In this document: positions 5,797 through 24,783 of the stretch, piece after piece | Layout of the letters: every line of letters starts with the position of its first letter | How positions within the stretch are numbered: the stretch's first letter is position 1 | Assembly: GCF_006345805.1 (NCBI RefSeq) | Contig: NC_043002.1 | Span: 12,462,001 to 12,526,000 of the forward strand | DNA: 64,000 nt | Source: Octopus sinensis | Taxonomy: Eukaryota | Reading direction: 5' to 3' | The notes under the pieces: model-generated | Seen by the model: the letters and a program-made list of their open reading frames with translations, nothing else | Told to the model about the DNA's origin: nothing | Databases searched by the model: none | Translations under genes and position numbers: made by a program

Positions 5797-6523
5797 GTGT
5801 CCTGATGTTCCATAACCTACACCCTAATGGCGATATATTTCATCGTTGTTGTGAATTGTAGAGAATTTTTGCAGGGTATTCATTCGTGATGGCTTGCTTC
5901 TGAATCACAAATGCTGTTGTTCCTGTTTGTTCTTTTCAGAATAAAATTCTTCATCAAAGCCAAAATGTATTTATCGTTTCTCTTTTTACTTGCATCCCTC
6001 CCTGGACTGTAGTCAAACTGGGACACTTGCTTCAAGTGTACAGTCCTTTTTTGTTAAGACTGGTACATAAACGAAACAACACCCGTTGCCGAGTGGTAGT
6101 GGGAGAAGAAACATAAAAACGCAAAAATTCACACATAGATACATACGTACACACACATACACACACACACACACACACATACACACACACACACATACAC
6201 ACACACACACACACATTGTTGTATTTCCAACAAGTCGAACAAGAGCACACACGAGGACGGAAAATTTCACTGAAGAGGTCACAGATCTGTGACGAAAGCT
6301 TTCCAGACAATGGTCATGAGTTAGAATAAGAAAAGTAATAAACGAGTGAAGAACAAATAAATAGTGCGAGTGTTTATTTGGCAAAAATAAAATAAAAATG
6401 ACCATCCCGAAGTACAACAAAATCTGTTTCAACACACGGTATCGTATCAGGAATCTTGCAACACAAATTCACAAACGTATACACACACACACACACACAT
6501 ACAAACACACACACATATATATG

Positions 6524-12050: not shown

Positions 12051-12720
12051 GTTTCTAACTTAGCTCTTCAAATTTGAAGGGAATTAATTAGTGGATTAAA
12101 TCGACCTTGATGTTTGATAGGTAGTATACTTTATCGACCCCCGAAGAGTTAAAAGGCAAAGTTGGCATCATTGTAGCGGAACTCGGAGTGAAAAGAAACA
12201 TAAATAAATTCTTTAAGGAATTTGTCCGACCTGCTTACCATTCTGCGAATTTACAGTCCTGAATTAGAGAGGATTAGAGAGAACCTTATCAGGACGTTAC
12301 GATTGTCTGATCTTTCAGGCAATTACTAATCAAATAGACGAAAAATGTATGAATCTCATTGGCGACAGCCTTTGACGGTAGATTTACGTAAGAGACATGT
12401 TCCGTACCTGAAAACTTTGATGATGTTGGAAGTATTAAATCTATTTTCACCGGAGACTTTCAGGACTAAGATGTCTGTGAAGAGAGCATAACTGCGGGAA
12501 CGAAATTTGCTTAGGGGGGCTCCAACCAAGATGTTCAAAGCGTTTTTGTTGTACCCCAACGACCAGTTTTAGTGGGGTAGCTTGCAACCCCTGCACCCTC
12601 TCTTCCCGAGCTAATGGAAGAGAGAAGTTGAAAGGCATAGTCGTGTGTTTAAGATGCTCGCTTTACAACCACGTGGTTATAGTAAAAGACCCTTGCTCAA
12701 GTGCTGAGCAGTGGAATTGA

Positions 12721-12888
12721 TACAGTTCTATATTTAAGAGATGAGGAATTAAGTACATTATTTACATTTGACGGGTATTTGTCCTCATCTTGTCTGTTGT
12801 TAACACAACGTTTCAGCTGATATACCTTCCAGCCTTCATCAGGTGTCTTGGGAAAATTTCGAACCTGGGTTCTCATTTCTAAGATATT
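12721..12888 (-). mobile_element. Penelope-like tail family P2 with minimal hammerhead (12802-12847), nested in a SINE A remnant
   Basis: Minus: GACAC-CTGATGA-A-GGCTG-GAAGGTATAT-CAGCT-GAAA-CG-TT-GTGTT; second copy at 52180-52320. Confidence 0.75.
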
Positions 12889-13199
12889 GAAACCAAAACC
12901 ACGTGGTTTCAAAACGAGGCTCTCACCCACACAGCCATGACCGACCAATTCTTAAATGAGATCTCCGTTAAGATAGAAACCGCATATGCAAATGCGAGTC
13001 CTGCTTTTAAAAGTACAAATATGGAGATAAGATTGTTGTTAGCGAGATCTAAACTAGTTGAATGAGATTTAGGTTAGTAAAAGAGCAACTAACCAAAGGA
13101 AGACTCTGATAGTAACTATGTAACTGATATGCGTGTGTACGTGTGTGTGTGTGTGTGTGTGTGTGGCGTGTGTGCTTTTGTGCGAGCGCGCGCGTGTGT

Positions 13200-13512: not shown

Positions 13513-13896
13513 GTGTGTTTATATGTATATGTATGTGTGTGTGTGTGTACAATGTATGTGTGCGTTCTTTGTTATTTTCTGTTTGCTTGGTCAGAAGGAA
13601 TGGTTTTTGAAGATGGCTTTCACAGATCCTCCAAGACCGATGATATCGATGCGGTTAGCGTCTTGTTTTTTATCTTTTGAAACATTTGCGACTTGGCAAT
13701 TTCAGGAAAAAGCAATGCTTTCTTCTTGTAGCAGAAAGCCGACAATTTTGAGACGATTCCAGTACTCAACTGGTGTATATTTTATCGTCTGCTGAAAGGA
13801 TGAATGGCAAAATCGAACCCAGCACCTGAAGAAATGCTGTTGGGTATTTGTTTTTTGCGTTGCTTTAACAGTTCTGTCAGTTAAAATAAGTAAAAC

Positions 13897-13950
13897 GATT
13901 TACTGAAGAGGCTAAGGAAATAGCCGAAACTGAAGGTTCAGTCCAAGGAA
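13897..13950 (+). ncRNA. Type I hammerhead ribozyme motif (canonical core, weak stem I)
   Basis: CTGAAGA(13903)-GGCTA-AGGAAA-TAGCC-GAAA-CTGAA-GG-TTCAG-TC(13943): complete conserved core, perfect stems II and III, GUC cleavage triplet. Confidence 0.65.
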
Positions 13951-14096
13951 TTCTCTAGTCGATCTTTTTGGGCGATTGCAGCCCCTGTGAGCATATCTGT
14001 ATACACATATGAGCTTTTCCTACAGCATTAGAGTATTTTAGCTCTTATTTCTACCGATGTTGGTGTCTTGACACCCTTAGTTGCGTATATATATAG

Positions 14097-14208
14097 TGAG
14101 AATTTACAAAAAAAGAAAAACAAAAGACGAGGACGGGTGTGTAAACAACAAACAGGTGTATTAATTTAACGCTCGGGAAGTGAGAAAGTCTTTTACGTTT
14201 CGAGCCTC
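14097..14208 (-). mobile_element. Penelope-like tail family P1 (truncated inside the hammerhead)
   Basis: Reverse complement of GGCTCGAAACGTAAAAGACTTTCTCACTTCCCGAGCGTTAAA. Confidence 0.7.

Positions 14209-22338: not shown

Positions 22339-22340
<2 letters not shown>
21928..22340 (+). mobile_element. SINE family A, full length
   Basis: Head GCAGGAGTGGCTGTGTGG, B box GGTTCAATCCC, TA/TG linker, tail AAAAGAGT. Confidence 0.92.
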
Positions 22341-22395
<55 letters not shown>

Positions 22396-22401
<6 letters not shown>

Positions 22402-23467
22402 GATACATATATGTATATATATTTTTATACATATATACTTACATACATATATATATATTCATATATCTATCAATCAATCAATCAATCTATCTATCTATCT
22501 ATATATATATATATCAAGATGTACGTATATATATGTGTATGTGTGTGTGTGTATATATACATATACACACACATATACACACATATATATATATAGACAC
22601 ACGCACATATATATATATATGTATGTATATATGTTTTTGTGTGTATATGTGTGTATGCATGTGTGTGTTTGTGTGTATATGAAAGTCTATAAAGACCAAA
22701 CTCACAGGAAAACTGAAAAAGGGGTCCCGTTTCATCAAGACAATGCTCCAGCACACAAGCCCTTCGTTTCAATAGCTGTTGTGCGTTGAGTGTTTGCTTT
22801 GAACTGGTTGATTACCTTATCTATGCTCCTGATTTCACCCCATCTGTCTGTCTATCTATCTGTCTGTCTGTCTGTCTGTCCGTCCGCCTGTCTGTCTATC
22901 TATCTTTATACATGCATACATAGCTCGCTTTCTTCTTGTATCGTTTAATTGTTTCAGTTATTGGACCGTGGCCATGCTGGGACACCGATTTGAATATATC
23001 GGCGTCAGTACTTCGTTTCAAATTTGGTATGTTAGCAATCGATCTGTTTCGTGGAACATTTGAGTTACTGGTACATAACCAAAGCAACACCGCACATACA
23101 CAAGCACACACATAGGCGCACTTTTTGACTCAAATTCATGTGTGTGTATGTGTATCTGCGTGTACACATATGTGTGTATGGGTTTACATGTGTATATATG
23201 TGTGTATGTGTATGTATATGTGTGTGTGTGAGTGTGCATGTGTATATGCGTGTGGGTATGCATATATATGTGTGTGTGTATGAATGGGCATGTACATAGA
23301 TATGTGTGTGTGTATCTCTATAAGTGTGTGTATATATGTGTGTGTATGTGTGTGCATGTGTGTGCATGTGTTTACATATATATATATACTTATGTGTGTA
23401 TGCATACATATGTGTGTGTATCTGTATAAGTGTGTGTATATATGTATGTGTATGTGCGTGCACTTGT

Positions 23468-23517
<50 letters not shown>

Positions 23518-24590
23518 GATACATATATGTATATATATTTTTATACATATATACTTACATACATATATATATATTCATATATCTATCAATCAATCAATCA
23601 ATCTATCTATCTATCTATATATATATATATATCAAGATGTACGTATATATATGTGTATGTGTGTGTGTGTATATATACATATACACACACATATACACAC
23701 ATATATATATAGACACACGCACATATATATATATATGTATGTATATATGTTTTTGTGTGTATATGTGTGTATGCATGTGTGTGTTGTGTGTATATGAAAG
23801 TCTATAAAGACCAAACTCACAGGAAAACTGAAAAAGGGGTCCCGTTTCATCAAGACAATGCTCCAGCACACAAGCCTTCGTTTCAATAGCTGTTGTGCGT
23901 TGAGTGTTTGCTTTGAACTGGTTGATTACCTTATCTATGCTCCTGATTCACCCCATCTGTCTGTCTATCTATCTGTCTGTCTGTCTGTCTGTCTGTCCGT
24001 CCGCCTGTCTGTCTATCTATCTTATACATGCATACATAGCTCGCTTTCATCTTGTATCGTTTAATTGTTTCAGTTATTGGACCGTGGCCATGCTGGGACA
24101 CCGATTTGAATATATCGGCGTCAGTACTTCGTTTCAAATTTGGTATGTTAGCAATCGATCTGTTTCGTGGAACATTTGAGTTACTGGTACATAACCAAAG
24201 CAACACCGCACATACACAAGCACACACATAGGCGCACTTTTTGACTCAAATTCATGTGTGTGTATGTGTATCTGCGTGTACACATATGTGTGTATGGGTT
24301 TACATGTGTATATATGTGTGTATGTGTATGTATATGTGTGTGTGTGAGTGTGCATGTGTATATGCGTGTGGGTATGCATATATATGTGTGTGTGTATGAA
24401 TGGGCATGTACATAGATATGTGTGTGTGTATCTCTATAAGTGTGTGTATATATGTGTGTGTATGTGTGTGCATGTGTGTGCATGTGTTTACATATATATA
24501 TATACTTATGTGTGTATGCATACATATGTGTGTGTATCTGTATAAGTGTGTGTATATATGTATGTGTATGTGCGTGCACTTGTATATATA
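22396..24590. repeat. Near-identical tandem duplication, period ~1116 bp
   Basis: 22396-23470 is repeated at 23512-24590, including a mariner scrap and a SINE A tail; units are separated by (TA)n. Confidence 0.95.
22695..22835 (+). pseudogene. Mariner transposase fragment (duplicated at ~23810-23950)
   Basis: GVPFHQDNAPAHK...FELVD...YAPD(F) corresponds to the mariner HDNA and YSPDL motifs. Confidence 0.85.
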
Positions 24591-24783
24591 TATATATATA
24601 TATGTATATGTTTGTGTGTGTGTATGACACTTTGTTTCAATAATGTCGATATTGCAGATTTTTCACATCATAGACTTTATCCCGAAATTATCAACACACA
24701 CACACGGACACACACACACACACATACGCACTCACGCAACAAACGCACAATTCAGTCCACTAAACAGTCACCGACCACTTGCT

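What the first reader, a model, noticed from the sequence alone, without database searches (positions are those of the whole stretch)
13897..13950. Canonical hammerhead ribozyme core in unannotated DNA
Seen: CUGAAGA, a perfect 5-bp stem II (GGCUA/UAGCC), GAAA, a perfect stem III (ACUGA/UCAGU with a short loop) and a GUC triplet, all in correct type I order. Stem I is poor (AUUUA vs CAAGG), which suggests the upstream strand was truncated or mutated. Known: Penelope-like elements and retrozymes carry type I hammerheads. Inference: this is a relic of a ribozyme-bearing retroelement family different from P1/P2, one with a real stem III that could cleave as a monomer.
Basis: partly seen in the sequence, partly recalled or inferred. 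Interest (0 to 1): 0.7.

Follow-up and report, generated by a model that had tools for sequence, protein, structure and literature searches.

The report
Broken hammerhead of a Penelope-type retrozyme
This is a damaged copy of a hammerhead (self-cutting RNA) motif from an old 352-base protein-free repeat scattered through this animal genome; the repeat was likely spread by Penelope-type jumping-gene enzymes and is predicted to cut mainly in pairs, a known kind of element, and this copy is predicted to be inactive.

Summary
The hammerhead core is real (13903-13943; 1 equal match in 300 shuffled windows). It is the 5'-broken remnant (13900-14085, 16 substitutions in 186 bases) of a dispersed, non-coding 344-352-bp repeat with at least four subfamilies. 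Family stem I is CCUUA/UAAGG, extended by about 10 pairs, with compensatory changes in stems I and II. Units join head to tail; insertions show Penelope marks: head-to-head inverted parts, two end sites about 50 bases apart, microsatellite targets. No link to a coding element was found. The window copy has lost stem I (pairing 0.00) and is predicted dead. Verdict: new member of a known kind (non-LTR retrozyme / non-autonomous Penelope-like element). The scan reported this kind, probably this family, on other DNA before (e1-9531557). Cleavage is untested.

The parts
13900..14085 (+). Remnant of one 352-bp repeat unit (subfamily A): ribozyme plus about 140 bases downstream
   Evidence: Genome matches start at 13899-13903 and end near 14084; 16 substitutions in 186 bases against the script consensus. 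BLAST extends to 14104, but those last bases belong to the next repeat.
13900..13902 (+). Only 3 bases left of the 5' strand of stem I (family has CCUUA plus a distal arm of about 10 pairs)
   Evidence: Alignments A1-A3; pair counts
13903..13909 (+). Catalytic core C3-A9 (CUGAAGA)
   Evidence: Sequence; each core base kept in 100-106 of 112 copies, N7 free
13910..13925 (+). Stem II (5 bp) with 6-nt loop 2; C-to-A change at 13915
   Evidence: pair 4 is U-A in 85 and A-U in 14 of 111 copies
13926..13942 (+). G12-A14 and helix III (13929-13933 / 13938-13942); loop 13934-13937; 14-nt palindrome in the family, broken here by C-to-G at 13935
   Evidence: paralogous contigs read C at 13935
13943..13944 (+). 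Predicted cleavage site after C17 (GUC); 13944 is U in the family, C here, which breaks the first pair of stem I
   Evidence: H17: C 49, A 45, U 7, G 5, gap 6 of 112
13944..13963 (+). 3' strand of stem I, internal loop and distal arm; no partner left upstream
   Evidence: distal helix 80.5% of cells paired in 64 copies; stem I pairing 0.00 in three window contexts
14086..14095 (.). (TA)5 microsatellite at the 3' end, the likely target site
   Evidence: Sequence; 59 of 99 family 3' ends precede a microsatellite against 11% background
13875..13899 (+). Flank unrelated to the family; supplies an accidental type III reading (UCAGU-U upstream)
   Evidence: Rfam 30.3 bits; this pairing has probability 0.01-0.08; no family homology; other individuals' contigs continue differently after 13900

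Best explanation
The motif is the broken remnant of a type I hammerhead carried by an old, dispersed, protein-free 344-352-bp repeat that was likely copied and inserted by a Penelope-like retrotransposon enzyme, whose intact ribozyme is predicted to cut mainly as a pair within tandem transcripts, and whose copy here is predicted to be inactive. Shown: family membership, unit size, head-to-tail continuity, covarying stems, palindromic helix III, inverted 5' parts, two end sites, microsatellite targets, and the lesions in this copy. Inferred cycle: (1) a longer-than-unit transcript brings two ribozymes together; their helix III palindromes form a 12-14 bp duplex and both sites would be cut; (2) the unit-length RNA would be ligated to a circle, in which the 3' strand of helix III (UCAG) is predicted to pair with the core CUGA and block re-cutting; (3) a Penelope-type RT/GIY-YIG protein would start cDNA at either of two sites about 50 bases apart and copy round the circle, giving 1-2-unit permuted inserts with inverted partners at (TA)n/(CA)n. 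The window copy then decayed and lost its upstream part, possibly by a later deletion.
For: Family: 53 matches from 40 scored of 905 candidates; further sets (250, 219, 1246, 814 candidates, 40 scored each); 112 distinct ribozyme copies in 142 loci. Unit 352 (A, D) or 344 (C) bp, GC 39%, longest stop-free frame 44-50 codons; tandem periods 347 and 331 in L003, L017; longest colinear run 742 bp. Structure: 83.8% of cells paired against 27-41% for slid controls; double changes at stem I pair 3 (U-A 63, C-G 20 of 110), stem II pair 4 (U-A 85, A-U 14 of 111), loop 3 outer bases (A..U 32, C..G 34 of 109). Insertions: 26 of 73 have inverted parts, all 26 head to head; 16 of 26 end once at unit 129-164 and once at 188-207, 0 of 26 twice in one cluster; 77 of 99 3' ends lie in the two clusters; 59 of 99 precede a microsatellite against 11.4%. 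These are the PLE marks described in PMC8557442 and PMC11167929. Intact RT plus GIY-YIG frames of 775-781 aa exist in the genome. Folding: circle core-blocked P 0.88, 0.92, 0.95 (A, C, D) against active monomer 0.048, 1.5e-5, 0.017; tandem MFE is the double hammerhead in all three, P 0.28, 0.11, 0.027 against single fold 4e-7, 2e-9, 6e-4; non-palindromic test loops lower the dimer 3.5-fold or more. Window copy: stem I pairing 0.00.
Against: No cleavage, transcript or circle was shown. Subfamily D spread with an imperfect palindrome (loop ends C..A in 24 of 37, C..G in 8 of 37; C..A 22 of 109 overall), so a perfect palindrome is not required. Each compensatory change is probably one or two events inherited by many copies; 'pairs with a change on both sides' did not exceed shuffles (229 of 500). 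ViennaRNA ignores loop 1-loop 2 contacts and Mg2+, which could rescue a monomer whose fold is only about 2 kcal/mol down in subfamily A. No long arrays were seen (at most about 2 units). The unit shares no real similarity with the 6 coding PLE loci fetched (one 21-nt AT-rich match), so the helper enzyme is not identified. A few GUG triplets (5 of 112) would not cleave. L012, L018 and L025 share junctions and are probably duplicates of one insertion.
Confidence: 0.75

Rival explanations
1. Same element, but its ribozyme cuts efficiently as a monomer like coral and mussel retrozymes; the palindrome and the core-blocked fold are side effects.
For: Helix III has 5 pairs (hairpin -3.2 kcal/mol); stem I is extended with an internal loop and loop 2 has a GAAAUA-like end as in the Rfam consensus, which could give tertiary contacts; active and blocked folds are within 0.1-0.2 kcal/mol in 91-nt A and B consensus fragments; subfamily D tolerates C.A mismatches; invertebrate retrozymes cut well as monomers (PMC7229834).
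Against: Loop ends switch A..U to C..G around a CG pair that cannot close a 2-nt loop within one molecule; ensemble probabilities of the single active fold are 0.05 or less in circles and 6e-4 or less in tandems.
Confidence: 0.3
2. The unit is the pseudo-LTR of a coding Penelope-like element not yet seen, and the copies are its 5'-truncated stubs.
For: All insertion marks are those of PLEs; most PLE copies are 5'-truncated (PMC8557442); only two query proteins and 1.5-kb flanks were used.
Against: The 3' end of one unit runs straight into the start of the next with no frame between (L003, L017, L112); PLE protein pieces were found in 3 of the family loci searched (L104, L108, L199) and in all 3 they are separated from the unit by microsatellites or other repeats.
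Confidence: 0.12
3. The window copy has been rewired into a working type III hammerhead using upstream flank as the helix III partner.
For: Rfam Hammerhead_3 at 13875-13935, 30.3 bits, E 0.00049; the flank holds UCAGU.
Against: Below cut-off 48.5; first stem I pair is A.A and the triplet is GUU; this pairing has probability 0.01-0.08 and a flank hairpin captures C3 with probability 0.6-0.67; the junction is absent from the two DNA runs laid; no other copy has this flank.
Confidence: 0.02

Closest known systems
Metazoan non-LTR retrozymes (Cervera and de la Pena 2020, PMC7229834; seen: passages, sections 13 and 14), above all the mussel units of 350-390 bp
   Same: Non-coding unit of 150-450 bp, GC under 45-50%, one type I hammerhead per unit, head-to-tail repeats, well-paired predicted circle (-94 and -103 kcal/mol against -74 and -78 for shuffles), coexisting autonomous PLEs.
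   Different: Here dispersed 1-2-unit inserts with inverted parts rather than long arrays; helix III of 5 pairs inside a 14-nt palindrome; old, no young copy seen; expression and circles not shown.
Non-autonomous PLE derivatives (Li, Clavereau, Pollet, bioRxiv 10.64898/2026.07.22.740005; seen: parts 1-3 of 5) and PLE insertion structure (Craig et al. 2021, PMC8557442; PMC11167929; seen: passages)
   Same: Partial tandems, inverted 5'-truncated copy, a tail present at one end only, two initiation sites, microsatellite bias.
   Different: No sequence link to a pLTR of a coding element was found here; tail about 50 bases rather than 30-40.
Dimeric type I hammerheads with palindromic helix III/loop 3 (Cervera and de la Pena 2014, PMC4209133, seen: passages and Discussion; Perreault et al. 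2011, PMC3088659, seen: passages and the legend of Fig. S8)
   Same: Palindromic 15.2-16.2 region, bulged base between 9 and 10.1 in subfamilies B and C, predicted double hammerhead that would spare the monomer circle.
   Different: Published cases have 1-2 bp helix III (10 bp in the Aedes dimer); here 5 bp (14 bp as dimer), and the monomer is predicted to be held off by core pairing rather than by a weak helix III.

Membership tests
Type I hammerhead ribozyme (family level) | Conserved core C3-A9, G12-A14, U16-H17 in type I order | tested here: met
Type I hammerhead ribozyme (family level) | Three helices with covariation | tested here: met
   double changes in stems I and II, none clear inside the 5 pairs of stem III
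Type I hammerhead ribozyme (window copy) | Stem I able to form | tested here: not met
   Pairing probability 0.00; first pair A.C; 5' strand lost
Type I hammerhead ribozyme (family level) | Match to an Rfam hammerhead model at gathering score | tested here: not met
   None in the window; none at E 0.05 in 8 family loci; the models miss this shape
Type I hammerhead ribozyme (family level) | Self-cleavage at H17 | not testable with these tools
   Needs a bench assay
Metazoan non-LTR retrozyme | Non-coding unit of 150-450 bp, low GC, one type I hammerhead | tested here: met
   344-352 bp, GC 39%, longest frame 44-50 codons
Metazoan non-LTR retrozyme | Head-to-tail repeats with two or more ribozymes | tested here: met
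   Two ribozymes in tandem in L017 and L112; longest run 742 bp, no long arrays; the window copy is a partial monomer
Metazoan non-LTR retrozyme | Expressed as linear and circular RNA | tested here: inconclusive
   No RNA holder listed; only contigs of guessed-RNA runs, which cannot show circles
Metazoan non-LTR retrozyme | Target site duplications, when present, longer than 4 bp | not tested
   Ends lie in microsatellites; not analysed
Penelope-like element, non-autonomous | Partial tandems, inverted 5' copy, tail at one end, microsatellite bias | tested here: met
   26 of 73 inverted, 16 of 26 with the two different ends, 59 of 99 ends at microsatellites
Penelope-like element, non-autonomous | Sequence similarity to the pLTR or 3' end of an autonomous partner | tested here: inconclusive
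   None with 30 GIY-YIG loci and 6 longer loci; these cover few of the genome's PLE families
Penelope-like element, autonomous | RT plus GIY-YIG frame within the element | tested here: not met
   No frame in the unit or window; 3 nearby protein pieces are separate insertions

The most novel reading that the evidence does not exclude
A natural hammerhead with a built-in copy-number switch: helix III repeats the core's own CUGA, so in a single unit its partner strand blocks the catalytic core, and only pairing of two 14-nt palindromes in a tandem transcript frees it. I found the weak-helix-III route to dimer dependence in print, but not this core-blocking route with a strong helix III.
Probability: 0.3. 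Interest if true: 0.55.

Novelty: new member of a known kind. Interest (0 to 1): 0.3.

Why it matters
The copy itself is a dead relic. The family adds an invertebrate case in which a retrozyme carries clear Penelope insertion marks, which supports the 2026 proposal that animal retrozymes are non-autonomous PLEs (that study was mostly on vertebrates). Four subfamilies with natural compensatory changes give ready-made constructs to test whether a hammerhead with a strong helix III is still dimer-dependent. Rfam models miss the family altogether.

Tried and rejected
Rfam at gathering score: nothing; E-value mode on 8 family loci: no hammerhead. Type III reading: rejected as an accident of the flank. 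Young copies: a 38-nt core stretch had only 2 genome matches with up to 1 mismatch; best non-self identities 86-89%; median non-CpG distance to consensus A 12% in 50 copies, window 7.3%. Helper element: no similarity to fetched coding PLEs; a 21-nt AT-rich match near the 3' end of one PLE family, in opposite orientation, was judged chance. PLE pieces beside L104, L108, L199: separate insertions. Expression: no RNA holder listed; contigs of guessed-RNA runs X3 and X12 laid on the repeat at 85% likeness, none of X4 and X6 at 95%; not evidence either way. An X1 contig that seems to give this copy an intact upstream arm was rejected as a probable chimera with locus L008, which shares 33 bases with 13899-13931. 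The sequence that follows 13900 in runs X1 and X2 is not in the window and has only chance-level matches in the assembly (5 against 12 for the control). Corrections: the 347-bp consensus had a seed deletion (352; unit positions use the 347 numbering, add about 5); one search had the distal helix out of register (fixed); one search was repeated with the corrected consensus. Alignment A3 left out 12 of 76 extracted copies that had deletions or truncations in the ribozyme, and the window copy.

Full report
Observation. The motif is as described: core 13903-13909, stem II 13910-13925, GAAA, stem III 13929-13942, C17 at 13943. It is the only such site in the window and arises once in 300 shuffled windows. 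Rfam gives nothing at gathering score and a sub-threshold type III match that uses upstream flank.

Family. The window lies in a 2.7-Gb animal genome; earlier scan notes call it octopus-like, which I did not test. A search with 13840-14100 returned 53 matches from 40 scored of 905 candidates, at 76-89% identity apart from the self match, nearly all starting near 13900 or downstream of it and ending near 14084. Four more searches gave 142 family loci with 112 distinct ribozyme copies; the true number is unknown, probably around a thousand by candidate counts. The downstream end of one copy continues into the upstream part of others, so the unit is circularly permuted: 352 bp (subfamilies A, D) or 344 bp (C), 39% GC, no frame over 50 codons. 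The family is old: 2 genome matches to a 38-nt core stretch with up to 1 mismatch, median distance 12%, 13 of 64 aligned copies with all core bases and stems.

Ribozyme of the family. Stem I is CCUUA/UAAGG, followed by an internal loop and a distal arm of about 10 pairs. Over 64 copies 83.8% of cells pair, against 27-41% when slid; the score exceeds all 500 shuffles, but the number of pairs with double changes does not (229 of 500), and copies are related. In 112 copies double changes occur at stem I pair 3 (U-A 63, C-G 20), stem II pair 4 (U-A 85, A-U 14) and the outer bases of loop 3 (A..U 32, C..G 34, C..A 22); H17 is C or A in 94. Each is likely one or two events. Helix III with its loop is a perfect 14-nt palindrome in subfamily A and self-complementary with G.U pairs in B and C; subfamily D has two C.A mismatches, which counts against strict selection for the palindrome.

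The window copy. It spans 13900-14085 with 16 substitutions and falls among subfamily A/B copies in a tree of the non-ribozyme region. Three changes hit the ribozyme: 13915 (loop 2), 13935 (breaks the palindrome) and 13944 (breaks the first stem I pair). Everything upstream of 13900 is missing; stem I pairing is 0.00 and a flank hairpin captures C3. In two DNA runs of one study the left flank continues after 13900 into other sequence (50 and 135 letters) and no contig bridges the junction; that sequence is absent from the window and at chance level in the assembly. So the break may be a deletion private to the assembled haplotype; this is not proven. The 3' end is a (TA)5 shared with the end of another repeat.

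How it moved. Of 73 distinct insertions, 26 have inverted parts, all joined head to head; 77 of 99 3' ends lie in two clusters about 50 bases apart; in 16 of the 26 one end is in each cluster and in none are both in the same; 59 of 99 ends precede a microsatellite against 11.4% of random flank. Craig et al. 2021 describe partial tandems, inverted 5' copies, a tail at one end and microsatellite bias for PLEs (PMC8557442, passages); the two initiation sites behind the tail were shown in vitro (PMC11167929, passages). Coding PLEs with intact RT and GIY-YIG frames are present but share no sequence with the unit, and the 3 protein pieces near family copies are separate insertions. Mobilisation in trans is therefore inferred, the partner unknown.

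How it would cut. Because helix III begins with CUGA or CUGG, its 3' strand UCAG also fits the core CUGA. In circular consensus units this blocked fold has probability 0.88-0.95 and the active monomer 0.05 or less; in tandems the minimum-energy fold is the double hammerhead in A, C and D. Both natural palindromic loops give the same dimer probability; single-change or unrelated loops lower it. This matches the logic stated for dimeric hammerheads (PMC4209133, passages and Discussion; PMC3088659 Fig. S8 legend). These are secondary-structure predictions; monomer cleavage helped by tertiary contacts remains a rival (0.3).

Known or new. The element meets the testable sequence features of metazoan non-LTR retrozymes (PMC7229834, sections 13-14) and fits the view that these are non-autonomous PLEs (bioRxiv 10.64898/2026.07.22.740005, parts 1-3 of 5). 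Four searches showed no paper on this family; Repbase, Dfam and supplements were not seen. The scan's own notes describe a 352-base repeat with a subfamily-preserved palindrome (e1-9531557) and paired insertion ends in related elements; my sequence look-up of those notes found no look-alike, so identity with that family is likely but unconfirmed. My reading of the unit, the palindrome and the two end sites was noted before that look-up.

Verdict. Observation confirmed; interpretation partly supported; new member of a known kind; interest 0.3.

Noticed in passing
window 12715-12890, minus strand: Truncated copy of a different, younger hammerhead family (4646 candidates, 93-95% identity): minimal PLE-type core with bulge, 6-bp stem II, ACGU palindrome and GUU triplet. 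Other copies carry an upstream tRNA-like head and an (AAT)n tract; the window copy lacks the head. No similarity to the 352-bp unit.
   Followed up: partly
window 14096-14207, minus strand: 3' end of a very high-copy repeat lying tail to tail with the finding at the same (TA)n; holds the 3' half of a minimal hammerhead at 14190-14207, and paralogous contigs continue into a core-like sequence; same end seen in L199.
   Followed up: no
window 13900: Structural difference between the assembly and two DNA runs: their left flank continues into sequence absent from the assembly. They also carry an 18-base insertion after 13753.
   Followed up: partly
window 6270-6300, plus strand: Weak hammerhead-like core with bulge and 6-pair stem II; not examined.
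   Followed up: no
L093:1721-4066, L095:1753-4095, L097:1532-3877, L096:1742-4069: Intact 775-781-aa RT plus C-terminal GIY-YIG frames of Penelope-like elements, many near-identical copies; L097 has an upstream 479-aa frame; no canonical hammerhead found next to the 781-aa family's 3' end.
   Followed up: partly
L107, L112 (ribozyme copies): A branch of subfamily C combines the compensatory stem II change with a GUG triplet, which should not cleave.
   Followed up: no
window 22340-24621: Tandem-repeat rows recur with an offset of about 1116 bases, suggesting a local duplication.
   Followed up: no
L012, L018, L025; L121, L122; L188, L189: Loci with the same junctions or identical scores, probably segmental duplications or haplotigs.
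   Followed up: no
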